Below, piece after piece: positions 14,155 through 30,094 of a stretch of DNA of 64,000 bases. The notes under the pieces were generated by a model that saw nothing but the letters and a program-made list of their open reading frames with translations, did no database searches and had not been told where the DNA came from. Source of the stretch: Candidatus Omnitrophota bacterium (GTDB taxonomy: Bacteria; Omnitrophota; Gorgyraeia; JAHIPI01). The stretch lies in the NCBI GenBank assembly GCA_018894435.1, contig JAHIPI010000027.1, forward strand, positions 1,552-65,551. Reading direction: 5' to 3'. How positions within the stretch are numbered: position 1 is the stretch's first letter; each line of letters begins with the position of its first letter. The position numbers and the translations under genes are program-made.

Positions 14155-14182
14155 GGGGTCAGACCCTCGTTATGTAAACTAC
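14155..14182 (+). repeat. REP unit (family A) GGGGTCAGACCCTCGTTATGTAAACTAC; single arm
   Basis: Fills the kdsD-kdsC junction; its CTA supplies the TAG stop of kdsD. Confidence 0.8.
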
Positions 14183-15138: not shown

Positions 15139-15151
15139 AACCCCTCTTTAT

Positions 15152-15206
15152 GGGGTCAGACCCTCGTTATGTTAACTACGTAGTTTACATAATCAGGGTC
15201 TGACCC
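15152..15206. repeat. REPIN: inverted doublet of family-A REP units forming a palindrome of about 55 bp
   Basis: ggggtcagaccctcgttatgttaactac|gtagtttacataatcagggtctgaccc. Encodes the last codons (IRVRP) and the stop of kdsA. Confidence 0.85.
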
Positions 15207-16846: not shown

Positions 16847-17857
16847 TCACCTGCTATGGCTACTGTCTATCTCTTTTCTAATTTTGTCTATCAATTCTTT
16901 TTGCGTAGTTACCGCGATACCGACCTTGCCGACCACTATCCCTGCCGCGCAGTTTGCTATGTGCGCCGCCTCTATAGCCTTTGCGCCGGAGGCAAGCGCC
17001 AGCGTATAGGCGCTTATGACCGTATCGCCCGCGCCTGAAACATCATACACTTCCTGCGCCACGGTGGGTATTTTTGTTATCTTGCCGTTTTTTTCGAAGA
17101 CGCACATCCCGTTCTCCCCCAAAGTAATAAGTACCGCTTCGCAATTCAGGCGCTTTAGAAGCTTTCTCCCTATATCTTCTATAGAAACGCCGTTCTCCGT
17201 CAATATGCCCGCTGCCCTCGCCGCTTCATGATGATTGGGGGTGATAGCCGTTACATTCTTGTACATCGGAAAATGGCTCTCTTTAGGGTCGACCGTTATG
17301 ATCTTTTTATGTTTTTTTGCCAGCTTTACAAGCGGAGAAAGGAGCTCCGGCACTATCACTCCCTTTCCGTAATCTTCTATTACCACAGCATCAATATGGC
17401 CTATGATCTCGTTAGCGAAATCCAGTATTTTCTTTACGGTGTCTTTGCTTATATTGCTAAGTTTTTCCCTGTCTATTCTTACTACTTGCTGGCTATGCGC
17501 TATAACTCTCGTTTTTAGGGTGGTGGGCCGCTCTGCTTCCATTATTACTCCCTCGGCATTTATCTCTCTCTTTGAAAGCTCTTCTATAAGGAGCCGCCCT
17601 CTTTCGTCATAGCCCACTGCGCCGGCCAAGTAGACTTTACAGCCGAGAGAACGTATGTTATTGGCGACATTGCTCGCGCCGCCCGGCATAAGGCTTTCTG
17701 AAGTAGCCCACACAACCGGCACCGGCGCTTCCGGGGAAATCCTCGAGACCTTGCCCCATATAAATTCATCAAGCATCAGGTCCCCTACGACAAGAACGGA
17801 GGCATTATCGAAATGCCTGATGATTTTTTTAAGTTTTTCTATTTTGAGGTCTTTCAT
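16847..17857 (-). CDS. hldE: D-glycero-beta-D-manno-heptose-7-phosphate kinase (HldE domain I / RfaE1, PfkB family); kinase domain only
   Basis: VLVVGDLMLDEFIWGKVSRISPEAPVPVV. The longest ORF begins 21 codons further upstream (MLCCFSV...); the Met at 17857 is preferred and abuts the corA stop. Confidence 0.7.
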   Translation of the reverse strand: MKDLKIEKLKKIIRHFDNASVLVVGDLMLDEFIWGKVSRISPEAPVPVVWATSESLMPGGASNVANNIRSLGCKVYLAGAVGYDERGRLLIEELSKREINAEGVIMEAERPTTLKTRVIAHSQQVVRIDREKLSNISKDTVKKILDFANEIIGHIDAVVIEDYGKGVIVPELLSPLVKLAKKHKKIITVDPKESHFPMYKNVTAITPNHHEAARAAGILTENGVSIEDIGRKLLKRLNCEAVLITLGENGMCVFEKNGKITKIPTVAQEVYDVSGAGDTVISAYTLALASGAKAIEAAHIANCAAGIVVGKVGIAVTTQKELIDKIRKEIDSSHSR

Positions 17858-17858
17858 A

Positions 17859-18830
17859 TTACAGCCATTCCTTCCGCTTGAAATACACCAGCATGCTGAT
17901 ACCGAGAAGCAACATAACAATAGATATACCCAGAAAACCGTATTCCCAATTCAGGATAGGCATATACCTGAAGTTCATGCCGTAGACACCCGTTATTAAA
18001 GTTAGCGGCATCATTATGGTAGCTATCATTGTAAGCACCTTCATTATATCGTTGGTCTTATTTGATACCGTGGAGATATACACATCAAGCGCGCTGTTCA
18101 GCACATCTCTGTAAGTGTCTATAGTGTCGTTTATGAATATCATATTATCGTAAACATCGCGGAAATAGATGCGGGTCTTGGCATGAATAAAAGGCGAATC
18201 TTCTTTCGACAGGAAATTTACCGTATCGCGCTGGGGCCCTATAAAACGCCTCATATTCAGGACTTCCTTCTTTAAAGTAAATATACTGTTAAGTATGCTC
18301 TGGGTCGGATTTTTGAGCATCTGCGTCTCGATATTTGATATCTTATAATCCATTACGTCAAGGACCGGCAGGTAATTATCCACCAGAGAATCCACCACTA
18401 GATGGAGAAGCACATCCGCTCCCTTTGCCATCGACTGCGGGTTCTTCTGTATCCTCTCCATGGTACTCGATATCCCTTTCATGAGTTCCTGATGGATAGT
18501 GATAATATAATTGCTACCGATGCACATATTCAGTTCTATCATCTTTACTTTTTGGGCGCGTGGCGTAAGCGTAGCGCCATGCATGACTATGAAAAGATAT
18601 TTCTCAAACCGGTCCACTTTCGGACGGGTGATCGTATTTATGCAGTCTTCTATAGTTAAGGGGTGCAATTCAAAGACCTTTTCTATCATATCCAGCTCTG
18701 CCTTTTCCGGGTCGATGATGTCGAGCCACAGGACGTCTTTTTCCGACTGGACAACGGCCTTCATTTCCTCGGGCTTGAGATTATTTATAATCTCGCCGTT
18801 CCCCTTGTAATAAACCAACGCTGTTGCCAT
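17859..18830 (-). CDS. corA: CorA magnesium/cobalt transporter
   Basis: C-terminal YGMNFRYMP (GMN motif) followed by two transmembrane helices. Confidence 0.85.
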   Translation of the reverse strand: MATALVYYKGNGEIINNLKPEEMKAVVQSEKDVLWLDIIDPEKAELDMIEKVFELHPLTIEDCINTITRPKVDRFEKYLFIVMHGATLTPRAQKVKMIELNMCIGSNYIITIHQELMKGISSTMERIQKNPQSMAKGADVLLHLVVDSLVDNYLPVLDVMDYKISNIETQMLKNPTQSILNSIFTLKKEVLNMRRFIGPQRDTVNFLSKEDSPFIHAKTRIYFRDVYDNMIFINDTIDTYRDVLNSALDVYISTVSNKTNDIMKVLTMIATIMMPLTLITGVYGMNFRYMPILNWEYGFLGISIVMLLLGISMLVYFKRKEWL

Positions 18831-18880: not shown

Positions 18881-19924
18881 TTATAACAATTTAAGCGAAC
18901 TTATCATCCCGCTGACAGCTTCAAAGACATCGTCCGTCGTGATCATCTTCAGGCATTTGAAACCGTTCTCGCAATTATGCGCAAGGCAAACCTTGCAGCC
19001 GGCGTCTTTATGAAGAAACATGTCCTTTTCGCCGGTAGGCCCCCATCTTTTCGGACTGAGGCCGGGCTCGTTCCTTCCGAATATAACAACACAGGGTGTG
19101 CCCGCAGCCGACGCTATATGGACCGGGCCTGAATCATTTGAAATAAATAAGGCGCACTTCTTAAAGAGCGCGGCAAGCTCGCCCACGGACGTCTTGCCGG
19201 AAAGGTCCAGCACCTCAGTTTTTAGGCCTTTTAAAAGCGCTTGGGCGTCTTTTGAATCGGCCGGCCCGGATATCAATACCGCCTGAAAATTATACCGTTC
19301 TTTCAGCCGGTCTATCAACGCCGCAAAACGCTCCGCCGGCCACCTCTTTGAGGGGCAGCTTGCGCCGGGATGCACAGCTATTAAGGGAACGGCACCGTTA
19401 TAGCCCTCGCGCGCCAGCTTTATATTTATCGAATTTTTGGCCGATTCTTTTACGGGCACATACGGCCTCTTATCCTTTGCCGTAATACCTATGTACTTTA
19501 ATATATCTAAAGTATAATCCAATTCATGCTTTTCTCCAAGAAATTTTTTATCTTTTATCCTTTTTGTCAAAAGACCCGCCATCTTCCTGTCTAGGCCGAT
19601 TCTTGAGGGGATGCCGGCTGAAAATGCTACTATATGCGCGCGGTTGGTCGGATGAAGTATAAGCGCTGTATCAAAGTGTTTTTTTCTTAAAGCCAGCCCG
19701 AAGAGGAGCGTCGCAAGAAAACTTTTATGCGCGCCGTCTTTATCATATATAATTACCTCATTGAGGTAAGGGTTACCTTCCACTATATCCCGGGCATAAG
19801 GCCGTACCATAACCGCAATATAAGCGGAAGGATAGGCATCCCTCACCGCCTTTATGGCCGGCGTAGAAAGCACCACATCGCCTATGCGGTCAGTCCGTAT
19901 TAGTAGTATGCGTTTTGGGTTCAT
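18881..19924 (-). CDS. Glycosyltransferase family 9 (ADP-heptose:LPS heptosyltransferase, WaaC/WaaF-like)
   Basis: RILLIRTDRIGDVVLSTPAIKAVRDAYPSAYIAVMV... Confidence 0.8.
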   Translation of the reverse strand: MNPKRILLIRTDRIGDVVLSTPAIKAVRDAYPSAYIAVMVRPYARDIVEGNPYLNEVIIYDKDGAHKSFLATLLFGLALRKKHFDTALILHPTNRAHIVAFSAGIPSRIGLDRKMAGLLTKRIKDKKFLGEKHELDYTLDILKYIGITAKDKRPYVPVKESAKNSINIKLAREGYNGAVPLIAVHPGASCPSKRWPAERFAALIDRLKERYNFQAVLISGPADSKDAQALLKGLKTEVLDLSGKTSVGELAALFKKCALFISNDSGPVHIASAAGTPCVVIFGRNEPGLSPKRWGPTGEKDMFLHKDAGCKVCLAHNCENGFKCLKMITTDDVFEAVSGMISSLKLL

Positions 19925-20331: not shown

Positions 20332-20364
20332 AGCTGATGACTGACGACTGAAAGCTGACAGCTC
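20332..20364. repeat. Family-B heptamer-repeat arm, right inverted repeat of the four-helix-bundle cassette
   Basis: agctgatgactgacgactgaaagctgacagctc; its reverse complement is agctgtcagctttcagtcgtcagtcatcagct. Confidence 0.7.
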
Positions 20365-21334
20365 ACTTACCAAGCATTTCTTTCGCAACCTCAAACACTT
20401 CCTCCGCAGTGATCTCTTTCATGCATTCGTGCTCAAACTCGCACTGCGCCTTTTCGCAAGGAACGCAGTGTATCTTCTTTCTTATAACGCGGTCGTCTTT
20501 GCCTCTCGGGCCGTAGAGCCGCGGGTCCGTCGGGCCGAATATCGCCAATACTTTTGTTCCGGCGGCAACTCCTAAATGCATGGGAGCGCTGTCATTCGTT
20601 ATAAGCAGGTCGCTCTTTTTTAAAAGTGCGGCAAGCTGGCAAAGGCTCGTTTCGCCGGTAAGGTCAGTTACCTCTTTATTTGCGGCGGCTATTATATCCT
20701 TTACCGCCCGCCTGTCCGCCTTGTCGCCTGCCAATATCACATCGGCGTCGATTTCGTCAATAAGACGCCCTACAAGCTCCGCATATCCTTTTTTCGTCCA
20801 TCTTTTTATCTCGCTTTTCGCGCCCGGCGCTATGGCAACAACGGGTTTTTTTGAGTCGCTCTTTTTTATTATCTTATCTATAAAATCAATGTCTTCCGTG
20901 GGTATATGTATAAAAAAAGGCGCGTCCTTTACTTCGAGCCCTATTGAACTCAGTTTTGCGAGGTGCTGCTCCTTTTTATGCCTGACGGCCCTTGGGACAT
21001 TTTGAATGGGGCTCGTCCTGTATTTTGCGCCCAGAAGAAACGGGAAAAGCGAATTTCTCATATCTACTATAAGGTCATAACGGACCTTTCTCAATTTCTG
21101 TATGAGGCGGCGTTTCTCTTTAAGGGATGTGTGCTTATTGTAGATTATCAGCTTAAATACAGCCGGATGTTTTTTGAATAAGTCCTCACCGTTCGGGCCG
21201 ACCATCACGTCGAGTCTAGCGCTTGGAAAATGGCCGCAAAGGACCGACATGACGGGTGTCGTCAGCACTATATCGCCTATATTGCTCAGTGTGATAAATA
21301 GCATGCGTTTTACTTTGGATTTGTCTATTTTCAT
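20363..21334 (-). CDS. Glycosyltransferase family 9 (heptosyltransferase-like)
   Basis: MLFITLSNIGDIVLTTPVMSVLCGHFPSARLDVMV... Confidence 0.8.
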   Translation of the reverse strand: MKIDKSKVKRMLFITLSNIGDIVLTTPVMSVLCGHFPSARLDVMVGPNGEDLFKKHPAVFKLIIYNKHTSLKEKRRLIQKLRKVRYDLIVDMRNSLFPFLLGAKYRTSPIQNVPRAVRHKKEQHLAKLSSIGLEVKDAPFFIHIPTEDIDFIDKIIKKSDSKKPVVAIAPGAKSEIKRWTKKGYAELVGRLIDEIDADVILAGDKADRRAVKDIIAAANKEVTDLTGETSLCQLAALLKKSDLLITNDSAPMHLGVAAGTKVLAIFGPTDPRLYGPRGKDDRVIRKKIHCVPCEKAQCEFEHECMKEITAEEVFEVAKEMLGK

Positions 21335-21343: not shown

Positions 21344-21391
21344 GGGGTCAGACCCTGATTATGTTAACTACGTTTCTTGGGGTCTGACCCC
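21344..21391 (+). repeat. REP (family A) with a shortened inverted arm
   Basis: ggggtcagaccctgattatgttaactacgtttcttggggtctgacccc. Encodes the C-terminal LGSDPKKRS of the upstream GT4-GT9 gene. Confidence 0.8.
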
Positions 21392-23532
21392 AGATACCCT
21401 TCTTCCTCAATCACCTTCATAACATCTTCCGGTGTAACGGCAGCCATGCACCTATTCTCGCGGCAGGTCATATCATAACAAGGAACTGAACAACCAATAT
21501 CTTTCTGTATCACCGTATAATTGTCTCCGCCGTAAGGGCCGGTTATGGCCGGATCCGTCGGCCCGAATATCGCTATCGTGCCGGTATGCATGCTTACAGA
21601 TATATGCATAGGCCCGGAATCCCCGGAGATAACGAGTTTGGCTCTTTCAAATATAGCCGCCATCTCCCTTATCGCAGTCCTTCCGCATAAAGATACCGTC
21701 TTATGGCGCATCGCTTTAGATATTTCTTCGGCCAGTTTCTCGTCTTTTCTGCCTCCGCTTATCACTATCTTTACACCGTATTTCTCCCGAAGCCGGTCGC
21801 CCAATAAGGAGAAATGCTCTACGGGCCACCTCTTAGGATCCCAGTTACCGCCCGGATTCAACACCACAAAACGCTCATTTGTGTTTATGCCCAGGGACTG
21901 TAAGAGCGCTTCGACTTTTTTTCTGTCAATATCCGTTATAAAAAACTCGTAATTCTTTTTAGAGGTATCCGCCCCTGCCGCTTCGGCCAATTTGAGGAAA
22001 TATTCCACTTTATGCATCCCGCACCCGCGCGCGGGCGCTGGATCGGATTGCTTCAGCTTCCCGGTCAGGATGCATCCTCTCCCTTTCGTGTCATAGCCAA
22101 TGCGCTCTTTTATCCCCGCCAAAAATGTAATGAATGCGCGTGTAAACGAACGGTGAAGTATAAAAGCTGTGTCAAAATGCTCTTTTCGCAGCTTCATTAT
22201 AAATCGGATCTTCCCCGCAATACCTCTTTCGCTCGCGTCTTCATCGAATATTATTAGTTCGTTAATACGCGAATTCGCCTCCAGCATCTCTTTCGTGCGC
22301 GGCACGACGACACAGGCGATGTAACTTTCAGGGTATGCCTCGCGGATAGCTCTTATGAACGGCGTGGAAAATATAACGTCGCCGAGCCAGTTCACGTTGA
22401 TGATTAATATTTTCTTCCGGGTTTTGGGTTTAGGGTTTATCACCTTTTTATATAAATTCTCGACTTTATCCGCCATCTTATCCAGCGTAAAGTCTCTCAA
22501 CACCTCTTCCCTTGCTTTTTCGCCAAGTGCGGACATCGTCTTCTTATCATTTAATAAATCTACGATCTTCCGGGCAAGGTCTTCGGCGTCGCCCACATTA
22601 AAAAGGATGCCGTTTTTCTTATCCTTTATAACATTCTCTATGCCGCCGACTCGACTCGCGATGCACGGTTTCGCCGAAGCCATCGCTTCCAAAAGCGAAA
22701 GGCCAAGACCTTCCTTCACCGAGGGTAAAATGAAAATATCCATAACTGAAAGCGGCTTTTTTGTGTCTTTTGCGCTTTTCGAAAATACTACATTGTCGCC
22801 GATGCCGAGTGTATCCGCAATTTTCCGCAGCCTCTTCTCGTCGGGGCCGTCACCGACCATCAATACCTTGAGAGACGGCACGCTGTCCGATACCCTGCTT
22901 GCCGCTTTAAGCAGTACCTCCTGGCCTTTCACAGGCGAAAGCCTGCCTATTGTGCCTATCACAGGGCCTTGGGCTTGGAACCCCAGTTCTTTTTTCTCCT
23001 TTATTTTATCGGCGTCAGCTATATCCCTGCGAAAATATTCGGTATCTATGCCGGTATATATAAGTTCCACTCTATCTTCCGGTAATTTGAAGTCATCCAT
23101 GAGATGCTGCTTTACCGCTTCGCTTATCGCTATCACTTTCACGCCCCAGGCTCCGTACAAGATCCTTCCCAGGCGGGTTTTAAAATAACCGTGACAAGTA
23201 GTAATATAAGGTACGCCCGTAGCGCGTGAGGTAAGGGCGGCCACTACCGCCGTAACCCTTGTATGCGCGTGTATTAATTCTATATTTTCCCGCTTCACTA
23301 TATCTTTTACGGCAAAAAATGTTTTGATTATCTTCGGGCTCAGTTCCGATTTAGTTTTTATATCCAGGTGAAAATGGTTTATGCCGCTTTTGGAAAGTTC
23401 CCCTTCCAGATCACCGCCAGAAGAAGCCACGAAAATAACGTGATTTCTCGCCTTCATGGCCTTAGCCAGATTGGCGACATATACGCCTATCCCGCCGATA
23501 TTAATGTGTGTTGTTAAGTGCAATATGCGCAT
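21364..23532 (-). CDS. Bifunctional glycosyltransferase: N-terminal GT4 (GT-B, EX7E) fused to a C-terminal GT9 heptosyltransferase-like domain
   Basis: N-terminus MRILHLTTHINIGGIGVYVANL...EGLGLSLLEAMASAKPCIAS. C-terminus KILIINVNWLGDVIFSTPFIRAIREAYPESYIACVV. Confidence 0.75.
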   Translation of the reverse strand: MRILHLTTHINIGGIGVYVANLAKAMKARNHVIFVASSGGDLEGELSKSGINHFHLDIKTKSELSPKIIKTFFAVKDIVKRENIELIHAHTRVTAVVAALTSRATGVPYITTCHGYFKTRLGRILYGAWGVKVIAISEAVKQHLMDDFKLPEDRVELIYTGIDTEYFRRDIADADKIKEKKELGFQAQGPVIGTIGRLSPVKGQEVLLKAASRVSDSVPSLKVLMVGDGPDEKRLRKIADTLGIGDNVVFSKSAKDTKKPLSVMDIFILPSVKEGLGLSLLEAMASAKPCIASRVGGIENVIKDKKNGILFNVGDAEDLARKIVDLLNDKKTMSALGEKAREEVLRDFTLDKMADKVENLYKKVINPKPKTRKKILIINVNWLGDVIFSTPFIRAIREAYPESYIACVVVPRTKEMLEANSRINELIIFDEDASERGIAGKIRFIMKLRKEHFDTAFILHRSFTRAFITFLAGIKERIGYDTKGRGCILTGKLKQSDPAPARGCGMHKVEYFLKLAEAAGADTSKKNYEFFITDIDRKKVEALLQSLGINTNERFVVLNPGGNWDPKRWPVEHFSLLGDRLREKYGVKIVISGGRKDEKLAEEISKAMRHKTVSLCGRTAIREMAAIFERAKLVISGDSGPMHISVSMHTGTIAIFGPTDPAITGPYGGDNYTVIQKDIGCSVPCYDMTCRENRCMAAVTPEDVMKVIEEEGYLGSDPKKRS

Positions 23533-23549
23533 AAATCTCCGGGGTCGCT

Positions 23550-23605
23550 GGGGTCAGACCCTCGTTATGTTAACTACGTAGTTTACATAATCAGGGTCTG
23601 ACCCC
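23550..23605. repeat. REPIN palindromic doublet (family A)
   Basis: ggggtcagaccctcgttatgttaactacgtagtttacataatcagggtctgacccc. Translated as the C-terminal tail LGSDPDYVNYVVNITRV of the upstream ORF. Confidence 0.85.
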
Positions 23606-25710
23606 AAATACTTCTCCACCGCTTTTAGCACTTCATCCGCTTTTATGTTTTTCATGCAGCGGTTATTTTTCGGGCAAACGCTCTTATAGCACGGGCTGCA
23701 TTTGATATCGGATTTGAGGACAATGGAATTTTCTACTTTCGTCATGTGTCTTTCGGGATCCGTCGGTCCAAATAGCGCCACTACCGGCACGTTAACAGCC
23801 GCTGCTATATGAAGCGGCGCGCTATCAGTAGTCACATATACTTTAAAACGGCTTATGAGCGCCGCAAGCTGCATGATATTTGTCTTTCCCGCCGCTATTA
23901 TGGGCTTACTCGCCGATAGTTTCGCCGCTTCTTTTGCCGGGGCAATATCCAGAGCTGCGCCGGTAAACACCGCCCTTATATCATGTTTCTTCGCAAGCGC
24001 GTCGCATAGTTCGGCTATTTCTTCGACGGGCCATCTCTTCGACTGCCATCTCGTACTCGCGGCTACATTTATGCCCACAAGAACATGCCTTTCGTCTACC
24101 CAGTTTTGTCTCAGAAAGTCATCCACCCATTCATAGTCCTCTTTTTTAGGCCAGAGCTGCGGCACTTCATCTTTTCTGTCTATACCGAGCATTGCGAGCG
24201 CCCTAAACTGATGCATTACCGGTTCGGCCGGTACTACGGAATCTTTGATCTTTTTATTTAAAAAGATGCTCCATTTACCGTTATCATAGCCATACCTTAA
24301 ATTTGCCATAGTCAGAAGTGAAAGAAGGTGGCTCGTCCTATTGTTCTGCAAATCCACGACTATGTCGAAATCTTCCTTTCTCAAACGTCCTGCCAATTTT
24401 AAAAGCCCCTTCCATGTCTTATCTCTGTTATCCGGTTCGAATATTATCCTCTCGTTTATGTACGGACAGCTCTCAAGCACACTGCTTGATGCTTCGCCGA
24501 CCAGCATCTTTATCACGGCTTCGGGAAATTTTTTCCGTATCGCCTGTAATGAAGGGATGGATAAGATCACATCGCCGAGAGCGCTCAGCTTAATAACCAG
24601 TATCTTCCTAAGTTTTATAGCATCCTCATAGACTTTCACGGTCTTCTCCGCCATGGAAGTGAGAGAATATTTATCCTCGACATCCTTTCGCGCCCGGGCG
24701 GCAATAGACCGGGCCAATCCGTTGTCCTTAAAAAGCCTCGTTATAGCTTCTGCTATGGAGTGCGGGTCTTCGGGAAATACCAATAAGCCGTTTTCTCCGT
24801 CGCGGATTATATCGGTTACCCCGCCTACCCGCGTAGCCACTACCGGCACGCCTACCGCCTGCGCTTCTATAATAACCCTGCCAAACGCCTCCGGTGCCCG
24901 CGTCGGCAGGACAAGCACATCAAGTTTAGACAATATCTGGGGGATATCCGTCCTCTGGCCCATAAATTCCACGACGCTGCTTATCCCTAACTGCCTTGTG
25001 AGGGCCTCAAGCTCTTCTCTGTATCTGGGTTTGGAATGCGGGGCGTCGCCGACTACCAGCAATTTTACATTCGGCATTTTTCTGAATATCATCGCTACCG
25101 CCCTGAAAAGATCCGCATGGCCTTTTAGCGGCGTTATTCTTGAGACTACGCCTATAATAAAATCTTTTTTCCGAGGGCTCTTCTCGCCTGCCGCGGCATC
25201 GATCTGTTTTAAGAATCTGAATTCGTCGAGATTGACTCCGCGCGGTATCAGCCTTATTCTGTCGTAGGGCGTAGCGAAATCTTTCATCATGTGCTCGGCC
25301 ATATCGCGGCTTGCTACTATTACAAACCTTCCCCAGCTCATGGGCCTTGAAAAAAGCCCGGTGTTATAATAACCGTGCGCTGTGGTTATAAATATCCTTT
25401 TAGTCAGTTTTGCCGCTCCTGAGCCAATTATAGCCGGCACCCTGCTTCTTGCGTGAACTATATCTATGTCTTCCTCTAATATGATCTTCGCCACTTTTCG
25501 TATCATCATTATAACGGTGACGGGAGATTTTTTCCCTACCGGAAGCGTGTAATGTTTAGAGCCTTCTTTCCGAAGGCGCTTTACGAGCCCGCCGCCACCT
25601 GATATCACGACGGATTTATGGCCCTTTTGGACGAGATAGCCGGCCAAATCTACCGCTCCGCGCTCCACACCCCCCACTTCCAGCTCTGGTAATATCTGTA
25701 GTATGTTCAT
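23554..25710 (-). CDS. Second bifunctional GT4-GT9 glycosyltransferase (paralog of 21364..23532)
   Basis: N-terminus MNILQILPELEVGGVERGAVDLAGYL...FGRVIIEAQAVGVPVVAT. C-terminus KILVIKLSALGDVILSIPSLQAIRKKFPEAVIKMLV. Confidence 0.75.
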   Translation of the reverse strand: MNILQILPELEVGGVERGAVDLAGYLVQKGHKSVVISGGGGLVKRLRKEGSKHYTLPVGKKSPVTVIMMIRKVAKIILEEDIDIVHARSRVPAIIGSGAAKLTKRIFITTAHGYYNTGLFSRPMSWGRFVIVASRDMAEHMMKDFATPYDRIRLIPRGVNLDEFRFLKQIDAAAGEKSPRKKDFIIGVVSRITPLKGHADLFRAVAMIFRKMPNVKLLVVGDAPHSKPRYREELEALTRQLGISSVVEFMGQRTDIPQILSKLDVLVLPTRAPEAFGRVIIEAQAVGVPVVATRVGGVTDIIRDGENGLLVFPEDPHSIAEAITRLFKDNGLARSIAARARKDVEDKYSLTSMAEKTVKVYEDAIKLRKILVIKLSALGDVILSIPSLQAIRKKFPEAVIKMLVGEASSSVLESCPYINERIIFEPDNRDKTWKGLLKLAGRLRKEDFDIVVDLQNNRTSHLLSLLTMANLRYGYDNGKWSIFLNKKIKDSVVPAEPVMHQFRALAMLGIDRKDEVPQLWPKKEDYEWVDDFLRQNWVDERHVLVGINVAASTRWQSKRWPVEEIAELCDALAKKHDIRAVFTGAALDIAPAKEAAKLSASKPIIAAGKTNIMQLAALISRFKVYVTTDSAPLHIAAAVNVPVVALFGPTDPERHMTKVENSIVLKSDIKCSPCYKSVCPKNNRCMKNIKADEVLKAVEKYLGSDPDYVNYVVNITRV

Positions 25711-25811: not shown

Positions 25812-27761
25812 TTAAACTATCCTTTTCACTGCCTCGTATATTTTTTCGTTATCGTTCAAACGCTTCGGCTCTTCGTCCGAATCCATAAGCCCTACAATAT
25901 TGTCTTTCAGGTCTTTTACTTCCGAGAGGCAGATATGCCCTTTGGAGGCCATCTTTTTAAGGAACAGCTCGTGCTTGTTCGCTGCCGGCGCCGAGAGTTT
26001 TTTGTTCGGTTTAAACGCTATAACGTGTTTGCCGGAACTCGCCGCCTCCGAAAGCATGGAAGTCGATTCGCCCGAAACTACCACGACCGAAGACGCGCCC
26101 AATATCCCGCCAATGGCCCATTCAGGATTGCGCTCAGCGGATATTATAACAAGCTTTGCAAGTTCATCTTTTCCGAGTTTCGTCTTTAGGAGATTGTTTA
26201 CCTCATTACTCGTCCTTCTTGATGTGGTCGCGAGTATGTTTGCGTCAAGTTCATGTGCTGCGCCGAGCACTTTTTCAATCACATCTTCCACAAGCGCCTT
26301 GTCCAGCGAATAATTCTTATTGTCCCCGCCTATGAATAACCCTATATTTTCCTTATTGCCGAGTTCCGCGATCCTCTCCAGCTGCTTCAGGTCATCGGCC
26401 ATCTTTTTTTGCGATATCAAATTGGGCATGCCGAGCGTCTTTACAATATTTTCTCTTTCGGCGGGCCTGTCGTGTTCCGGTATTATGTTTATGTCAAAAT
26501 TGCGCACTGATAAAAGCGACGGTTTCATAAGCGCGATGCTTTTTGCGCAGTTTTCCCTGCTGAAGAGGATGTTTACGGCCGCCACGCGCGATCCGCATGA
26601 TATCACTATGTCGGCGTAAGCACTTTTTATCTCGTCATAACATTTAGGATCCAAAACAAGATTGAGCAGCTTCATCCTGAACAAGCAATAATTTGAAATA
26701 AGGGGCGTGATTAAAGCGGCAAGGGTCCTTCCGAAATCACTTTTATACGTTATCTCTATCACCCTTTTTTCGGTATCGCGCTCGGTATAGCCGAATTCGC
26801 GCCGCGATTCTTTTATCTTCTCGAAGACGGCAAGCGATTGATTTAAATGGCCCGCCCTGCCGTCTGTTAAAATAACCACCTTCCTCAAAGGTGTAGATTT
26901 CCATCTTTTATGAAGCCAAAGCCACTGCTCAGGGCTTTTCCTTACAAATGATTCCAAGAGAGAGCCGAATCTCTGCATTGCTTCAAGCTCGTTAGCTTCC
27001 ATGTCGCCTTCACTGCTGAGTGCTATGGGTTTCTCTATAAATATTGTATGGTAAGGACCGTCCCTTCTTACGACAAATGCCGGCACTATGAGGGCACCCG
27101 TCTTTCTCGCCAGCGCGAAAGCGCCTCTCGGACTGGAAGTAGGCCTCGCGAAGAAATTTATAAATACCCCCTTTTTGCCGGCGTCCTGATCGGAGAGGAT
27201 CCCGACTATGCCGTTTCTCGCGAGGTGCTCGTATATCTCCCTTGTTGCCATGCCTTTTTTTATGACCTTGCAGCCCTTGCTTTCTCTGGCGGCATTTAAA
27301 AGGTTGTTCAACCGCGTCATCTTCTGTTCCCTCGCAAGCACAAAAAGAGGAAAGCCTCTTAGCGCGCTCGCGATACTGGAAAGTTCCCAGTTTCCAAAAT
27401 GACCCGTAAGGTATATGGTGCCGCGGCCAAGTTTAGCCGCGCTTTCAAAATTATGCCAACCCTCCACTTTTATATATTTCTCAAAATAGTCCTTGTCAAC
27501 GTCGGGCAATCTCAAGATTTCCACAAGCATTTGGCCAAAATTCCTATATAGGCGCTTAACGGTACGCCGTATCTCTTCGGGCTCCTTTTCCGAGCCGAGC
27601 GCCGCGCGCATATTGGAATACGCCACCTTCGCCCTCTTGTAATTTACAAAATATGCGATACTGCCAAAGCCGCGGCCAAACGCCAAAGCGGTATCTACGG
27701 GAAGTATCCTGAAAAGCGCGCTTGCAAAATTAGCTATTAAATAAAGAACGTAATCGAGCAA
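25812..27761 (-). CDS. Fusion protein: N-terminal lipid A lauroyl/myristoyl acyltransferase (LpxL/HtrB family) plus C-terminal ELM1/DUF1022-like domain
   Basis: N-terminus ...YSNMRAALG...YLTGHFGNWELSS (LPLAT/LpxL motifs). C-terminal half begins VVILTDGRAGHLNQSLAV, recalled as the signature N-terminus of the ELM1-like family. Confidence 0.6.
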   Translation of the reverse strand: MLDYVLYLIANFASALFRILPVDTALAFGRGFGSIAYFVNYKRAKVAYSNMRAALGSEKEPEEIRRTVKRLYRNFGQMLVEILRLPDVDKDYFEKYIKVEGWHNFESAAKLGRGTIYLTGHFGNWELSSIASALRGFPLFVLAREQKMTRLNNLLNAARESKGCKVIKKGMATREIYEHLARNGIVGILSDQDAGKKGVFINFFARPTSSPRGAFALARKTGALIVPAFVVRRDGPYHTIFIEKPIALSSEGDMEANELEAMQRFGSLLESFVRKSPEQWLWLHKRWKSTPLRKVVILTDGRAGHLNQSLAVFEKIKESRREFGYTERDTEKRVIEITYKSDFGRTLAALITPLISNYCLFRMKLLNLVLDPKCYDEIKSAYADIVISCGSRVAAVNILFSRENCAKSIALMKPSLLSVRNFDINIIPEHDRPAERENIVKTLGMPNLISQKKMADDLKQLERIAELGNKENIGLFIGGDNKNYSLDKALVEDVIEKVLGAAHELDANILATTSRRTSNEVNNLLKTKLGKDELAKLVIISAERNPEWAIGGILGASSVVVVSGESTSMLSEAASSGKHVIAFKPNKKLSAPAANKHELFLKKMASKGHICLSEVKDLKDNIVGLMDSDEEPKRLNDNEKIYEAVKRIV

Positions 27762-28812
27762 CTATCTCCTCCTTATTCCTCGTAACTGTGGCTTCTATCA
27801 GCAGGCTTAAAAGATCCACTTTTTTGCCTCCTCCGGAAGCCTCTATCAAACTCGCAAGGCCGTCCGTACCGTTATTTTTTGAGCGTATGATATCCTTTTC
27901 TGTAGTAATGACGGTATCAATGCCTTCACGCGCGCATTTTTCGATCACTGAGTCAACATCCTTCATGCTGTACAGGTGATGGTCCGCATAATAGAAACTC
28001 TCGGCGATATTGGCGCCCAGATTTTTTATCATCCACTCAAAGTAGCCGGGATTGGCGATAGCCGCAAGAAGAGCTACACGCCTGCCTTTTATATAATCCA
28101 ACGGCACGATCCCGCCGGATACTCTTTTTAGGCCTGCCGGTTTATAGAAAGATTCTACGGCGACAATATCATCTTTTATCTTCTTTAGCTCCGCGTATAT
28201 TGCGGGCTTATTGCTGGCGCCCATATCGGCCTTTGTCAAAACGGCCATGTCGGCCTCTTTCAGGCGGCTGAGCCCTTCGCGCAGGATACCAGCCGGAAAT
28301 AATTTCATATTTCCAAAGGGCGAAGTCGCATCTATGAGGACTATATTGAGGTCTCTTTTCAGCCGGCGATGCTGAAAACCGTCATCAAGTATAATGCAGT
28401 CGCTTCCAAACTTGTCTATGGCGCGCTTTGCGCTTTTATATCTATCGGCCCCTACTATTACGGGTATACCGCTAAGGCGTGTTTCAAGAAGATGCGATTC
28501 ATCTTCGCCGTAACCTCTTATCAAAACGGCGACATTTTTTCCCATCGCCTTTACGTTCTCCGCCAGCATGATAACAAAAGGCGTCTTGCCGGTACCGCCC
28601 AACGTTATATTACCCACACTGATGACCTTGGCGGATACTTTTCTGCAAGGCAGGATGCCGGCCCTATACAAAAAAGATATGCACTTTAAAACAATGGCGT
28701 ACAAAAAAGAGCATAACGATAGAATTATTCCTACTACATAAGCATCCGGCGTCTTCCTTTCGCCTTTCATTATTGAGAGCATGTACAGTTTTAATTTATC
28801 CATGGTAAACAA
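27730..28812 (-). CDS. lpxK: Tetraacyldisaccharide 4'-kinase
   Basis: VISVGNITLGGTGKTPFVIMLAENV; overlaps the neighbouring genes in operon fashion. Confidence 0.85.
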   Translation of the reverse strand: MFTMDKLKLYMLSIMKGERKTPDAYVVGIILSLCSFLYAIVLKCISFLYRAGILPCRKVSAKVISVGNITLGGTGKTPFVIMLAENVKAMGKNVAVLIRGYGEDESHLLETRLSGIPVIVGADRYKSAKRAIDKFGSDCIILDDGFQHRRLKRDLNIVLIDATSPFGNMKLFPAGILREGLSRLKEADMAVLTKADMGASNKPAIYAELKKIKDDIVAVESFYKPAGLKRVSGGIVPLDYIKGRRVALLAAIANPGYFEWMIKNLGANIAESFYYADHHLYSMKDVDSVIEKCAREGIDTVITTEKDIIRSKNNGTDGLASLIEASGGGKKVDLLSLLIEATVTRNKEEIVARLRSLFNS

Positions 28813-30094
28813 GATCCATAATCAAAAGCGCGTTGCGTTCCGTCGAACCGACGTTATCCATAACGACTTTTCGGGCATTCTCGCCCATTATCTTCCGTTT
28901 ATGTTCGTCGAAAAGGAGCTCCCTCAGGTATTTTGCCAGCTCCTCCTCGTCGTCCGCCACGAGAAGCGCGCGTTCATTCAGAAAGAGTTCCGCCATATCC
29001 TTAAAATTATCCACAAAAGGCCCGGTTATTATCGGCTTTGCGTACGCCGCCGGCTCCACAAAATTATGGCCTCCTTGGGGAACAAGGCTTCCGCCCATAA
29101 TCACAATAGCGGCTATCTGATAAAGTACTTTCAGATTGCCGATAGAATCAAGCAGAAATACGCAATCGTCCAAAAAGTGCGCGTCCCGGCCGCTTATTAT
29201 TTCCGACATCCTTACGGGAGTAAAGTCAAACTTTGATATAAGCGCGGCTATTTCATTTACCCTCTCTATGTGACGCGGAGCTATCAAAAGCCGCGCATCC
29301 GGAAAATCACCTTTTAGCGACTTAAAGGCTCCAAGTATCTTTTGGTCTTCTCCACGGTGAGTGCTGCCGGCTATGATAAGTTTTGCCTGATGAGGAAGCC
29401 AAAGATCACTTTTTTCTATCGGGAAAAACGAGCGCGCGGCCGTATCGGATACCTTATATATCATATCAAATTTCATGTTACCGGTAACTTTTACCCTGTC
29501 GGAAGGCGCGCCCAGCTCTATTATTCTCGCCGCGTCGTCTTTCGCCCTCATGGCAAAAAGGGTAATTTTTGAAAGTATATTACTCATGACCGGTTTTATA
29601 AGCATATAATTCGCAAATGATTTCGCGGATATGCGGCCGTTCAAGAGCGCTATAGGTATCTTATTGTCATGAAGCGCCGAAATAAGATTGGGCCATATCT
29701 CGGTCTCTATGGAAATAAACAGGCACGGGTTTATTTCTTTTATCACCTTTTTTACGATAAATGTCAGATCCAGCGGCAAGTATATTACGATGTCCTCTTT
29801 TGCGGCTATGGAAAGCGCTATCTCGTGGCCCGTCTTGGTTACATTTGATATAACGAGGCGTTTTGACGGAAAAAGAGTCTTAATCCTCTCTATGAGGCCC
29901 TCCGTAGTCTTCATTTCCCCTACACTTACGGCGTGGATCCATATGGGCCTTGCACGCGCCATGCCCAGGAGTAATCCCTTGTCAAATATGCCGAAGCGCT
30001 GCATAAAATCCTTATGCGCCTTCTTTTTTATCAGAAAATAAGGCAGATACACCAGCGCAAACAATATAAAAAACAGATTGTAAAGTATCCGCAT
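28796..30094 (-). CDS. waaA: 3-deoxy-D-manno-octulosonic acid transferase (Kdo transferase)
   Basis: PIWIHAVSVGEMKTTEGLIERIK; 432 aa. Confidence 0.85.
   Translation of the reverse strand: MRILYNLFFILFALVYLPYFLIKKKAHKDFMQRFGIFDKGLLLGMARARPIWIHAVSVGEMKTTEGLIERIKTLFPSKRLVISNVTKTGHEIALSIAAKEDIVIYLPLDLTFIVKKVIKEINPCLFISIETEIWPNLISALHDNKIPIALLNGRISAKSFANYMLIKPVMSNILSKITLFAMRAKDDAARIIELGAPSDRVKVTGNMKFDMIYKVSDTAARSFFPIEKSDLWLPHQAKLIIAGSTHRGEDQKILGAFKSLKGDFPDARLLIAPRHIERVNEIAALISKFDFTPVRMSEIISGRDAHFLDDCVFLLDSIGNLKVLYQIAAIVIMGGSLVPQGGHNFVEPAAYAKPIITGPFVDNFKDMAELFLNERALLVADDEEELAKYLRELLFDEHKRKIMGENARKVVMDNVGSTERNALLIMDLVYHG

What the first reader, a model, noticed from the sequence alone, without database searches (positions are those of the whole stretch)
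21364..25710. Two tandem paralogous GT4-GT9 fusion glycosyltransferases in the LPS core cluster
Each ~720-aa protein has a complete GT4 retaining-glycosyltransferase domain (EX7E motif) fused to a complete GT9 heptosyltransferase-like domain. In characterised LPS core pathways (WaaG versus WaaC/WaaF/WaaQ) these are separate enzymes. Two such fusions in tandem, next to two stand-alone GT9 genes, suggest an unusual inner-core assembly line or a non-LPS glycoconjugate.
Basis: partly seen in the sequence, partly recalled or inferred. Interest (0 to 1): 0.5.

Follow-up and report, generated by a model that had tools for sequence, protein, structure and literature searches.

The report
Two independently fused LPS-core glycosyltransferases
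Two neighbouring genes in an uncultured Omnitrophota bacterium each join a GT4 sugar transferase to a GT9 heptose transferase for building the lipopolysaccharide core; the fusions are real, but they arose separately (one ancient, one recent), so this is an unusual packaging of ordinary enzymes and not a new pathway.

Summary
Observation confirmed. ORFs 21364-23532 ("A", 722 aa) and 23554-25710 ("B", 718 aa), both on the minus strand, each carry a complete GT4 module and a complete GT9 module with all catalytic motifs intact. They lie in a conserved Omnitrophota operon: waaA-lpxK-[LpxL~ELM1]-B-A-GT9-GT9-heptose-7-P kinase-kdsBADC.

The interpretation needs correction. A and B are not copies of one fused ancestor. 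B is fused in 67 of 68 complete loci from other Omnitrophota species, with a conserved junction, so that fusion is ancient. A is two separate genes in 63 of 69 loci, usually with a CE4 deacetylase gene between them. A is fused only in the window and six loci, in at least three separate lineages with non-homologous linkers. A's GT9 module groups with a stand-alone GT9 (197/200 bootstraps) and not with B's (3/200).

The same modules also occur as GT9~GT9, GT4~deacetylase and GT4~GT9~GT9. A distinct GT4~GT9 fusion sits in a probable Armatimonadota lipid A cluster.

Most likely function: two bifunctional enzymes, each adding a heptose (GT9) and an alpha-linked hexose or HexNAc (GT4) to Kdo-lipid A. 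Public records call them only "heptosyltransferase II" or "glycosyltransferase". Moderate-to-low interest: a new architectural variant of known enzymes, with no biochemistry yet.

The parts
23554..25710 (-). Gene B: GT4~GT9 bifunctional glycosyltransferase, 718 aa (NCBI name 'glycosyltransferase')
   Evidence: ORF; Pfam hits. Fused in 67 of 68 complete Omnitrophota loci. NCBI name.
24625..25710 (-). B, GT4 module (residues 1-362). R191 and K196 in SRITPLKG; EX7E at 274-282 (nt 24865-24891)
   Evidence: The motifs are intact in 62 of 66 B orthologs.
24607..24621 (-). B junction (residues about 364-368, AIKLR): very short and of fixed length across the phylum, with no relic start codon
   Evidence: junction alignment across 64 loci.
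23557..24624 (-). B, GT9 module (residues 363-718). D380, K558 and D629 correspond to HepI D13, K192 and D261. Cys4 motif at C671/C674/C679/C685.
   Evidence: Invariant in 66 of 66 sequences.
21364..23532 (-). Gene A: GT4~GT9 bifunctional glycosyltransferase, 722 aa (NCBI name 'lipopolysaccharide heptosyltransferase II')
   Evidence: Fused only in the window and in L001, L003, L004, L005, L006 and L015.
22435..23532 (-). A, GT4 module (residues 1-366). H114; R197 and K202 in GRLSPVKG; EX7E at 274-282 (nt 22687-22713). Closest structures are BshA and MshA.
   Evidence: Motifs are invariant in 71 of 71 orthologs.
22414..22440 (-). A linker (residues about 365-373, INPKPKTRK). It derives from the N-terminal extension of a formerly separate GT9 gene.
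   Evidence: split sister L027 has GT4 '...EVIGSR*' followed by GT9 'MNKIKKTRKKILIF...'. Linker pLDDT is 73-85.
21367..22434 (-). A, GT9 module (residues 367-722). D385, K567 and D638. Cys4 motif at C681/C685/C690/C695. TIGR02195 score 174.6 bits (cutoff 134.6).
   Evidence: Invariant in 73 of 73 sequences.
20363..21334 (-). GT9s1: stand-alone GT9, 323 aa
   Evidence: Catalytic D/K/D present in 64 of 64. Fused to GT9s2 in 27 other loci.
18881..19924 (-). GT9s2: stand-alone GT9, 347 aa; closest paralog of A's GT9 module
   Evidence: 216 bits to A_GT9; 197/200.
16847..17920 (-). [quoted passage not shown]
   Evidence: TIGR02198 score 384.3 bits against a cutoff of 345. Position conserved in 40 loci.
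25812..27761 (-). LpxL-type lipid A acyltransferase fused to an ELM1/GtrOC1-type putative glycosyltransferase, 649 aa
   Evidence: PF03279 plus PF06258. Fused in 58 loci. NCBI names.
27730..28812 (-). lpxK (tetraacyldisaccharide 4'-kinase)
   Evidence: PF02606, 3.4e-72.
28796..30094 (-). waaA (Kdo transferase)
   Evidence: PF04413, 3.8e-57.
13631..16739 (-). kdsC, kdsD, kdsA and kdsB (CMP-Kdo synthesis)

Best explanation
A and B are two bifunctional lipopolysaccharide inner-core glycosyltransferases of an Omnitrophota bacterium.

Each polypeptide carries two complete and apparently active GT-B enzymes joined by a linker of about 5-10 residues. The N-terminal module is a retaining GT4, which would add an alpha-linked hexose or N-acetylhexosamine from a UDP- or GDP-sugar. 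The C-terminal module is an inverting GT9, which would add L,D- or D,D-heptose from ADP-heptose.

Together with two stand-alone GT9 enzymes and the ELM1-type module fused to LpxL, they would extend Kdo-lipid A at the cytoplasmic face of the inner membrane. Fusion ties two steps of that series into one protein, giving 1:1 stoichiometry and co-localisation on the lipid-anchored acceptor.

The two fusions have separate histories. B fused once, early in the phylum. A's modules are ancestrally separate genes with a CE4 GlcNAc-type deacetylase gene between them. In the window's lineage the deacetylase gene was lost, the two genes came to abut, and loss of the stop codon joined them. The same thing happened independently in at least two other lineages.

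The deacetylase association, including GT4~CE4 fusions elsewhere, suggests that A's GT4 module transfers an N-acetylhexosamine, as WabH/WabN do in Klebsiella. In this genome that sugar would stay acetylated unless a deacetylase is encoded outside the window.

Shown here: architecture, motif integrity, synteny, distribution, and independence of the two fusions. Inferred: the donors, the acceptors, the order of steps, and any kinetic benefit of fusion.
For: - Architecture and folds.
- HepI catalytic residues D13, K192 and D261 (PMC5713226) align to invariant columns in all four GT9 modules. They are invariant across 60-73 orthologs per class, except 5 Lys-to-Arg changes in GT9s2.
- GT4 R/K/H/EX7E motifs are invariant in 71/71 A and 62/66 B orthologs.
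- LPS context: the order waaA-lpxK-LpxL~ELM1-B-A-GT9-GT9-rfaE kinase-kdsBADC is conserved in about 70 Omnitrophota species. The kinase passes the curated heptose-7-P kinase cutoff.
- Independent fusions, counts: B is fused in 67 loci against one split. A is split in 63 loci and fused in 6 plus the window.
- Independent fusions, phylogeny: fused A lies in three places on the B-protein tree, each next to 'split, abutting' relatives.
- Independent fusions, junctions: linkers are non-homologous and in L004, L005 and L006 retain the former GT9 start Met; the window linker matches the N-terminus of L027's separate GT9.
- Independent fusions, domain tree: A_GT9+GT9s2 197/200 versus A_GT9+B_GT9 3/200.
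- Deacetylase: a PF01522 gene lies between A_GT4 and A_GT9 in 43 of 80 loci and is absent from the window. Its nearest named families are PgaB and IcaB. A GT4~CE4 fusion exists, P0033. The WabH/WabN precedent is in PMC8552709.
- A_GT4's closest structures are the UDP-GlcNAc enzymes BshA and MshA.
- Reproducibility: identical proteins in three assemblies.
Against: - There is no biochemical or structural-chemistry data for any Omnitrophota LPS. Donor and acceptor specificities cannot be read from GT4 or GT9 sequence.
- None of the four GT9 classes can be assigned to HepI, HepII or HepIII. The tree with E. coli WaaC and WaaF is unresolved, and B's GT9 falls just below the HepII cutoff (131.1 versus 134.6).
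- pTM of 0.64 means the relative placement of the two modules is not confidently predicted, so a defined inter-module interface is unproven.
- The trees are neighbour-joining on one protein with a midpoint root. The B+GT9s1 grouping could be long-branch attraction.
- The rest of the ADP-heptose pathway (GmhA, GmhB, adenylyltransferase, epimerase) was not found in the part of the window that was annotated.
- That A works as separate genes in most species shows that fusion is not required for function.
Confidence: 0.7

Rival explanations
1. One reading: A and B are tandem duplicates of a single ancestral gene that was already a GT4-GT9 fusion. The split A genes seen elsewhere would then be secondary fissions.
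For: A and B align colinearly over the full length at 32% identity, including across the junction. They are adjacent and share the Cys4 motif.
Against: - A_GT9 groups with stand-alone GT9s2 in 197/200 bootstraps, and with B_GT9 in 3/200. Raw scores agree: 216 versus 182-189 bits.
- All four GT9 classes share the Cys4 motif, so it is not specific to A and B.
- A is split in 63 of 69 loci, including the deepest branches, mostly with a deacetylase gene exactly between the modules.
- Fused A occurs in three separated positions with unrelated linkers of different lengths.
Confidence: 0.08
2. Neutral-fusion model. The A fusion, and perhaps the others, has no functional meaning beyond co-expression. 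In a compact operon whose genes abut or overlap (TAAATG, ATGA), a single point mutation or indel removes a stop codon. The product is tolerated because both enzymes already work at the same membrane site.
For: - Split A genes abut with gaps of -8 to +6 nt in about 16 loci.
- Fusion recurs in several combinations: GT9~GT9 in 27 loci, GT4~CE4, GT4~GT9~GT9, pfkB~kdsB.
- Fused A lineages are few and terminal.
- The modules function as separate proteins in most species.
Against: - B's fusion has been kept in 67 of 68 loci over phylum-scale divergence, with a fixed-length junction.
- A deep clade keeps B's GT4-like module even after losing every catalytic motif, which suggests a structural role for the fused partner.
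- A GT4~GT9 fusion arose again in a probable Armatimonadota LPS cluster.
- These points argue for selection on B but do not settle the matter for A.
Confidence: 0.3
3. The GT9 modules are not heptosyltransferases and transfer another sugar, so the core is heptose-poor or heptose-free.
For: - No GT9 class is orthologous to E. coli WaaC or WaaF.
- B_GT9 is below the HepII cutoff and none reaches the HepI cutoff.
- Only one ADP-heptose pathway gene was seen in the window.
Against: - The heptose-7-phosphate kinase is conserved inside the cluster in 40 loci and passes its equivalog cutoff.
- D13, K192 and D261 equivalents are invariant.
- A_GT9, GT9s1 and GT9s2 pass TIGR02195.
- A GT9~HAD (GmhB-like) fusion exists among relatives, P0076.
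Confidence: 0.12
4. The locus builds a non-LPS glycoconjugate such as a capsule, a glycoprotein (TibC/Aah-type protein heptosylation) or a glycolipid.
For: GT4 and GT9 families also include non-LPS enzymes. One divergent fused homolog, P0238 on L081, lies outside any LPS cluster.
Against: - The genes sit between waaA/lpxK/lpxL and kdsBADC in one co-directional operon conserved in about 70 species.
- The TibC/Aah model scores only 25.6 bits against a cutoff of 200, and only for GT9s1.
- The operon contains no Wzx/Wzy, ABC-exporter or initiating phosphoglycosyl transferase.
Confidence: 0.04
5. Assembly or sequencing artefact: a missed stop codon or frameshift created false fusions.
For: The source is a metagenome-assembled genome, and A is split in most relatives.
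Against: - Identical A and B proteins occur in three separately deposited assemblies.
- The same fusion is present in a 91%-identical MAG, L001.
- About 26 further fused A-type clusters and about 42 full-length fused 50%-identity representatives exist in public data.
- One fused A comes from a single-cell genome, L006.
Confidence: 0.02

Closest known systems
E. coli/Klebsiella inner-core enzymes WaaC (HepI), WaaF (HepII) and WaaQ (HepIII), CAZy GT9
   Same: The PF01075 GT-B fold is shared. The catalytic Asp, Lys and Asp are conserved. The genes sit next to waaA and Kdo genes. The presumed donor is ADP-heptose, and an rfaE-type kinase lies in the cluster. A's GT9 passes the HepII equivalog cutoff.
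   Different: The known enzymes are stand-alone proteins of about 320-350 aa. Here two of the four GT9 units are C-terminal modules of 720-aa proteins. None is demonstrably orthologous to WaaC, WaaF or WaaQ. All four carry a C-terminal four-Cys motif that E. coli WaaC, WaaF and 3tov lack.
WaaG and other GT4 core glycosyltransferases; BshA and MshA (UDP-GlcNAc-dependent GT4)
   Same: Retaining GT4 fold with PF13439 plus PF00534, the EX7E motif and the R/K phosphate-binding motif. WaaG acts directly after the heptosyltransferases in enterobacterial core synthesis.
   Different: Similarity to WaaG is weak (about 37 bits). The nearest structures are BshA, MshA and a Rickettsia GT4. The known enzymes are single-module proteins.
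WabH/WabN two-step glucosamine incorporation into the Klebsiella core (PMC8552709)
   Same: A GT4 GlcNAc transferase is paired with an LPS-GlcNAc deacetylase. In 43 of 80 Omnitrophota loci a CE4 deacetylase gene directly follows A's GT4 gene, and in P0033 the two are fused.
   Different: The window itself lacks the deacetylase. The Omnitrophota CE4 has an N-terminal hydrophobic segment (read from its sequence), so it may act on the periplasmic side.
Multi-module glycosyltransferases in general, such as bi-domain exostosins (GT47+GT64, PMC9178029) and the A. pleuropneumoniae capsule multienzyme 8qoy
   Same: One polypeptide carries two glycosyltransferase catalytic modules that are thought to perform successive additions on one growing glycan.
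   Different: Those are polymerases that alternate two sugars in a repeating polymer. A and B would each perform two single, non-repeating additions to a lipid-anchored core. No solved structure spans a GT4+GT9 pair (best query TM 0.47).
HldE (RfaE), the classical gene fusion in the heptose pathway
   Same: It is a Rosetta-stone fusion of two consecutive pathway enzymes that are separate genes in other bacteria. Here the kinase is unfused.
   Different: HldE fuses a kinase and an adenylyltransferase in precursor synthesis, not two glycosyltransferases.

Membership tests
CAZy GT4 / Pfam Glyco_transf_4 + Glycos_transf_1 (N-terminal modules of A and B) | HMM match above the curated threshold over the whole module | tested here: met
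   For A, PF00534 scores 156 bits and PF13439 scores 97 bits. For B they score 134 and 86 bits. The cutoffs are 26-29 bits.
CAZy GT4 / Pfam Glyco_transf_4 + Glycos_transf_1 (N-terminal modules of A and B) | GT-B fold of two Rossmann-like halves | tested here: met
   In the AF2 model of A the block-mean pLDDT over residues 1-364 is about 74-95. It superposes on BshA, MshA and 7mi0 with target TM 0.85-0.87. B was not modelled.
CAZy GT4 / Pfam Glyco_transf_4 + Glycos_transf_1 (N-terminal modules of A and B) | EX7E motif and the Arg/Lys donor-phosphate motif | tested here: met
   In A, EX7E is at 274-282 and the Arg/Lys are R197 and K202. In B, EX7E is at 274-282 and the Arg/Lys are R191 and K196. 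Conserved in 71/71 A orthologs and 62/66 B orthologs.
CAZy GT4 / Pfam Glyco_transf_4 + Glycos_transf_1 (N-terminal modules of A and B) | Retaining stereochemistry and the identity of the donor sugar | not testable with these tools
   This needs enzyme assays. The HexNAc inference rests only on the CE4 association and on BshA/MshA similarity.
CAZy GT9 / Pfam Glyco_transf_9 (C-terminal modules of A and B) | HMM match above the curated threshold | tested here: met
   PF01075 scores 141.8 bits for A and 128.2 bits for B, against a cutoff of 22.
CAZy GT9 / Pfam Glyco_transf_9 (C-terminal modules of A and B) | Equivalents of the HepI catalytic residues D13, K192 and D261 | tested here: met
   A has D385, K567 and D638. 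B has D380, K558 and D629. These were mapped through a profile alignment to 2gt1 and 1psw. The residue roles come from PMC5713226.
Heptosyltransferase II (WaaF) equivalog, TIGR02195 | Score at or above the curated equivalog cutoff of 134.6 bits | tested here: inconclusive
   A scores 174.6 (passes). B scores 131.1 (fails narrowly). GT9s1 scores 135.5 and GT9s2 scores 143.3. Four paralogs cannot all be HepII, so the model is not discriminating here.
Heptosyltransferase II (WaaF) equivalog, TIGR02195 | Orthology to characterised WaaF in a phylogeny | tested here: not met
   All four Omnitrophota classes are closer to each other (distance 1.4-1.7) than to E. coli WaaF (1.9-2.1). No class groups stably with WaaF.
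Heptosyltransferase I (WaaC), TIGR02193 / NF008204 | Score at or above the curated cutoff (185.3 or 437 bits) | tested here: not met
   The best TIGR02193 score is B at 109.3 bits. A scores 89.8, GT9s2 81.5 and GT9s1 75.4. Which module acts on Kdo is unknown.
WaaG (UDP-glucose:(heptosyl)LPS alpha-1,3-glucosyltransferase) | Close sequence relationship to WaaG | tested here: not met
   The match to 8b5q/8b5s is only 37.6 bits over part of the module, far below the BshA match of 136 bits.
WabH/WabN-type HexNAc transfer plus deacetylation | GT4 gene paired with an LPS-GlcNAc deacetylase | tested here: not met
   Not met in the window: no CE4 homolog at tblastn E<=1. Met in 43 of 80 related loci and in the fused protein P0033. 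Direct homology to WabH or WabN was not tested.
LPS inner-core biosynthesis operon | Co-directional linkage with waaA, lipid A late genes, Kdo synthesis genes and heptose precursor genes, conserved across species | tested here: met

The most novel reading that the evidence does not exclude
In Omnitrophota, and recurrently elsewhere (for example a probable Armatimonadota lineage), LPS-core GT4 and GT9 enzymes would work as obligate physical pairs. The mosaic of alternative fusions (B GT4~GT9, A GT4~GT9, GT4~CE4, GT9~GT9, GT4~GT9~GT9, LpxL~ELM1, WaaA~LpxK) would then be a Rosetta-stone map of a membrane-associated core-assembly complex and of its order of action. One clade retains a catalytically dead GT4-like module fused to a live GT9. 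That would mean the GT4 fold serves as a structural or acceptor-presenting subunit for the heptosyltransferase. The principle might also apply to the unfused WaaG/WaaF-type enzymes of model bacteria.
Probability: 0.15. Interest if true: 0.55.

Novelty: new variant of a known kind. Interest (0 to 1): 0.33.

Why it matters
**What it adds.** LPS core assembly has been worked out almost entirely in Proteobacteria, where each sugar is added by a separate peripheral-membrane enzyme. Whether those enzymes form complexes is largely unknown. This locus and its relatives show repeated natural fusion of consecutive core enzymes in an uncultured phylum. That gives testable predictions about which steps are coupled: a GT4 with a GT9, a GT4 with a deacetylase, and a GT9 with a GT9.

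**Experimental value.** Single polypeptides that carry out two core additions may be convenient for structural work or chemo-enzymatic synthesis.

**Annotation.** The current public names describe only one of the two activities, or neither ('lipopolysaccharide heptosyltransferase II', 'glycosyltransferase').

**Limits.** The component enzymes, the pathway and the idea of multi-module glycosyltransferases are all familiar, and nothing here has been tested biochemically.

Tried and rejected
1. The genome-collection scan with the mixed A+B alignment A1 failed because no stretch was conserved enough. It was repeated with the A-type alignment A2. The search patterns came from A's GT9 module, so the 80 loci are biased towards genomes that have an A-type GT9.
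2. I tried to assign the GT9 modules to HepI, HepII or HepIII using E. coli WaaC, WaaF and Veillonella 3tov as landmarks. The tree was unresolved. NCBIfam scores do not discriminate either, since three of the four paralogs pass the HepII model.
3. The Foldseek search of AFDB50, meant to find fusions with organism names, could not run because the library was unavailable.
4. Three literature searches for any description of a GT4-GT9 fusion or of Omnitrophota LPS found nothing relevant. The single Omnitrophota paper mentioning a heptosyltransferase concerns a different cassette.
5. My regex motif calls on the divergent fused representatives used fixed windows and proved unreliable. A pairwise alignment showed that P0280 does carry the GT9 motifs and four Cys residues. 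I do not rely on those regex calls.
6. I considered that the 'uncultured Planctomycetia/Planctomycetales' labels might mean a second phylum. I rejected this because those loci share the full synteny and interleave with Omnitrophota on the B tree. The labels look like coarse submission taxonomy, which I could not check directly.
7. I considered that split A genes might be frameshift artefacts. I rejected this because 63 loci are split: about 43 of them have a complete deacetylase ORF between the two genes, and about 16 of the remaining 20 or so have clean stop/start junctions.

Full report
**1.

The window contains two adjacent minus-strand ORFs exactly as reported. A is 21364-23532 (722 aa) and B is 23554-25710 (718 aa). 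Each has a complete GT4 unit (PF13439 + PF00534, residues about 12-342) followed by a complete GT9 unit (PF01075, residues about 440-690). E-values range from 1e-24 to 1e-46.

Both proteins have EX7E at residues 274-282 and the Arg/Lys donor motif. The genes are 21 nt apart, and a GGAG lies 7 nt before A's ATG.

An AlphaFold2 model of A has mean pLDDT 88.8 and pTM 0.64. Its N half superposes on BshA, MshA and a Rickettsia GT4 (target TM 0.85-0.87). Its C half superposes on Veillonella GT9 3tov (0.87) and E. coli WaaF (0.83). No solved chain covers both halves. Residue numbers in alignments A1 and A2 and in the model are one lower than in the full protein, because the first Met was left out of the reference.

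**2. Organism and public status**

A is 100% identical to NCBI proteins annotated 'lipopolysaccharide heptosyltransferase II [Candidatus Omnitrophota bacterium]'. B is annotated 'glycosyltransferase'. Each has three accession numbers from separately deposited assemblies. The fusions are therefore reproducible and already in the databases, but their names reflect at most one of the two modules.

**3. The context is an LPS inner-core operon**

All of the following are on the minus strand:
- kdsC, kdsD, kdsA, kdsB (13631-16739)
- corA
- GT9s2 (18881-19924)
- a small PF05635 gene
- GT9s1 (20363-21334)
- A and B
- an LpxL~ELM1/GtrOC1 fusion (25812-27761)
- lpxK and waaA

Upstream of waaA lie xerC/D-like, topA and dprA genes, which are unrelated housekeeping.

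**4. Catalytic competence**

The review PMC5713226 names D13, K192 and D261 of E. coli HepI as the catalytic or binding residues conserved in all heptosyltransferases. A profile alignment of the four GT9 units to 2gt1 and 1psw places these three residues on invariant columns. In A they are D385, K567 and D638. In B they are D380, K558 and D629.

Across related species the conservation is as follows:

| Module | Residues checked | Conserved |
|---|---|---|
| A_GT9 | D, K, D | 73/73 |
| GT9s1 | D, K, D | 64/64 |
| GT9s2 | D, D | 60/60 |
| GT9s2 | K | 55 Lys, 5 Arg |
| B_GT9 | D, K, D | 66/66 |
| A_GT4 | H, R, K, E, E | 71/71 |
| B_GT4 | R, K, both Glu (H-G and GG loop also checked) | 62/66 |

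All four GT9 units also share an invariant C-x(2-3)-C-x4-C-x(4-5)-C motif that E. coli WaaC, WaaF and 3tov lack. I read this as a probable structural metal site, which is an inference.

**5. Comparative genomics changes the interpretation**

A scan of one genome per GTDB species returned 490 relatives. The best 80 loci are all Omnitrophota, some carrying coarse 'uncultured Planctomycetia' labels. I labelled every ORF by BLASTP against the window's proteins.

The conserved order is topA-xer-waaA-lpxK-[LpxL~ELM1]-[B]-A_GT4-(CE4)-A_GT9-GT9s1-GT9s2-(corA)-rfaE kinase-kdsB-kdsA-kdsD-kdsC.

- **B.** It is a single GT4~GT9 ORF in 67 loci, and only L045 looks split. Its junction has a fixed length and a conserved sequence.
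- **A.** It is fused only in the window and in L001, L003, L004, L005, L006 and L015. In 63 loci A_GT4 (about 365 aa) and A_GT9 (about 340 aa) are separate genes.
- **Split A junctions.** About 20 of the split pairs abut, often as TAAATG. About 43 have an additional gene of roughly 770 nt between them.
- **The intervening gene.** It is a PF01522 polysaccharide deacetylase (109 bits). Its nearest named families are the GlcNAc deacetylases PgaB and IcaB, both below cutoff. It has no homolog anywhere in the window.

**6. Polarity and independence of the fusions**

On a neighbour-joining tree of the B protein (66 taxa, midpoint root), 'split + deacetylase' is the widespread state and includes the deepest clade. 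Fused A appears in three separated places:
- window + L001, sister to L027/L028 (split, no deacetylase)
- L015 + L003, sister to L033 (split)
- L006, sister to L007 (split)

The linkers of these fused lineages are unrelated in sequence and length. L004, L005 and L006 retain the former GT9 start Met: L006 '...NFLMEKILVV', L004 '...KMLKMERVLIV', L005 '...SLSMNRILIV'. The window's linker 'NPKPKTRKK' corresponds to the N-terminal extension 'MNKIKKTRKK' of L027's separate GT9.

At the domain level each of the four GT9 classes is monophyletic (199-200/200). The unrooted tree groups A_GT9 with GT9s2 and B_GT9 with GT9s1 in 197/200 bootstraps. The A_GT9+B_GT9 grouping expected from duplication of a fused gene appears in 3/200. 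Raw scores agree.

I conclude that B fused once and early. A fused late and repeatedly, after the deacetylase gene was lost and the two genes came to abut. The caveats are that these are distance trees of single proteins, the root is a midpoint, and the B+GT9s1 grouping may be long-branch attraction.

**7. A wider pattern of module shuffling**

The same building blocks occur in other combinations:
- GT9s1~GT9s2 in 27 loci
- GT4~GT9~GT9 (P0003, 1081 aa), GT4~CE4 (P0033), GT9~HAD phosphatase (P0076) and GT4~GT4 (P0032)
- pfkB~kdsB in L045

An exhaustive profile search of 1.84 billion cluster representatives found about 42 full-length and about 13 truncated proteins that match both modules in one stretch. 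It also found many GT9~GT9 and multi-GT4 proteins.

One divergent B-like fusion, P0238, lies outside any LPS cluster. The LeuRS on its contig is closest to Omnitrophota.

A third type (P0172, P0173, P0280; 27-31% identical to both A and B) lies in a differently organised cluster: fabZ-lpxA-lpxB-msbA-[WaaA~LpxK]-lpxL-GT9-[GT4~GT9]. The nearest named relative of that WaaA~LpxK protein, at 68% identity, is from an Armatimonadota MAG. P0280 aligns colinearly with A and keeps the GT9 motifs. The architecture is therefore not unique to Omnitrophota. The phylum assignment rests on a single named hit.

**8. Mechanism**

*Shown.* Each protein holds two intact catalytic modules inside a conserved LPS operon.

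*From established knowledge.* GT9 heptosyltransferases invert ADP-L-glycero-beta-D-manno-heptose to give alpha-heptosides on Kdo or heptose (PMC5713226). GT4 enzymes are retaining and make alpha linkages. Core assembly takes place on lipid A-Kdo at the cytoplasmic face before MsbA flipping.

*Inferred.*
- A and B each perform one heptosylation and one hexose or HexNAc addition. With GT9s1, GT9s2 and possibly the ELM1 module, that gives six or seven additions.
- Fusion enforces stoichiometry and proximity.
- A's GT4 probably transfers a HexNAc. Three observations support this: its gene is followed by, or fused to, a GlcNAc-type deacetylase in most species; its nearest structures are the UDP-GlcNAc enzymes BshA and MshA; and WabH/WabN provide a precedent (PMC8552709).
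- In the window's lineage the sugar would stay N-acetylated unless a deacetylase is encoded elsewhere.

*Unknown.* Which GT9 acts first on Kdo. B's GT9 has the highest HepI-model score (109 bits) but is far below the cutoff, and the tree with E. coli references is unresolved.

**9. Is the fusion adaptive?**

For B, three observations argue for selection:
- phylum-wide retention
- a fixed junction
- a deep clade (L034, L036, L048, L065) that keeps a GT4-like module after losing the GG loop, H-G, R..K and both Glu of EX7E, while the attached GT9 stays intact

For A, the few terminal fused lineages, the abutting gene arrangement in their sisters, and normal function as separate genes elsewhere are equally consistent with a near-neutral loss of a stop codon.

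**10. Novelty and verdict**

The components and the pathway are known, and multi-module glycosyltransferases are a familiar concept. A GT4~GT9 LPS-core bifunctional enzyme was not described in any paper I could find, and none has a solved structure.

I classify it as a new variant of a known kind, of moderate-to-low interest. The reading 'tandem paralogous fusions' should be replaced by 'two independently fused bifunctional core glycosyltransferases, one ancient and one recent'. The non-LPS alternative is not supported.

Noticed in passing
window 25812-27761 (-): A 649-aa fusion of an LpxL-type lipid A late acyltransferase (PF03279) with an ELM1/GtrOC1-type putative glycosyltransferase (PF06258). 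It is fused in 58 related loci. NCBI names it only 'mitochondrial fission ELM1 family protein'.
   Followed up: partly
window 19950-20315 (-), insertion about 19925-20362: A gene for a PF05635 '23S rRNA-intervening sequence protein' (four-helix bundle, weak bAvd-like hit) sits between GT9s1 and GT9s2. The cassette of about 440 nt is flanked by inverted repeats (...ATCAGCTAT... / ...ATAGCTGAT...). It is absent from all 80 related loci, including the 91%-identical L001, where the two GT9 genes overlap by 4 nt. It looks like a recent mobile insertion inside the operon.
   Followed up: partly
L078 13161-13985 and 42 other loci; absent from the window: A CE4 polysaccharide deacetylase gene (PF01522; nearest families PgaB and IcaB) lies between the A_GT4 and A_GT9 genes in 43 of 80 Omnitrophota loci. 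It has an N-terminal hydrophobic segment. In P0033 it is fused to the GT4 (627 aa). This suggests a WabH/WabN-like HexNAc-then-deacetylate step that the window's lineage has lost or moved.
   Followed up: partly
L034 7891-9996, L036 794-2935, L048 7794-9965, L065 7905-10001 (also L045): In one deep-branching clade the N-terminal GT4-like module of B has lost the GG loop, the H-G motif, the R..K-G motif and both Glu of EX7E. The fused GT9 module keeps all its catalytic residues. This looks like a pseudo-glycosyltransferase module retained as a fusion partner.
   Followed up: partly
window 21448-21492 and 23656-23700 (also in GT9s1 and GT9s2): A C-terminal four-cysteine motif, C-x(2-3)-C-x4-C-x(4-5)-C, is invariant in all four GT9 units and in 66/66 B orthologs. 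It is absent from E. coli WaaC, WaaF and Veillonella 3tov. It may be a structural zinc site.
   Followed up: no
27 loci such as L007, L009-L014, L078; protein P0003: The two GT9 genes that stand alone in the window are fused into one GT9~GT9 protein of about 670-700 aa in 27 other species. P0003 (1081 aa) is a triple GT4~GT9~GT9 fusion.
   Followed up: partly
L082 5428-7923 and 10001-12160: A metagenome contig carries a WaaA~LpxK fusion (831 aa) and a third type of GT4~GT9 fusion (719 aa, 28% identical to A) in a cluster ordered fabZ-lpxA-lpxB-msbA-...-lpxL-GT9. It is probably Armatimonadota, since the nearest named relative is 68% identical. Some relatives extend the fusion to WaaA~LpxK~LpxL (1161-1186 aa).
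   Followed up: partly
L081 10001-12103: A divergent B-like GT4~GT9 fusion (P0238, 700 aa) lies outside any LPS cluster, between radical-SAM, TrkH and PRAI genes. The lineage's LeuRS is closest to Omnitrophota at about 60% identity.
   Followed up: partly
window 17859-18830 (-): A corA Mg2+ transporter gene lies between GT9s2 and the heptose kinase only in the window's subclade (7 loci). Elsewhere the kinase directly follows the GT9 genes.
   Followed up: no
L045 (ORF labelled pfkB~kdsB, 506 aa); L027 6200-6309: In L045 the heptose-7-P kinase and the CMP-Kdo synthetase appear fused. In L027 the 110-nt spacer between the split A genes is a long GGTAG/CCTAC-rich palindrome.
   Followed up: no
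window 47760-48347 (-) and 11281-13542 (-): One ORF gives a sub-threshold REP-associated tyrosine transposase-like hit (72 bits against a cutoff of 80), in a stretch of lower G+C (about 42%). A 753-aa ShlB/FhaC-type two-partner-secretion transporter with C-terminal TPR repeats lies just beyond the kds genes.
   Followed up: no
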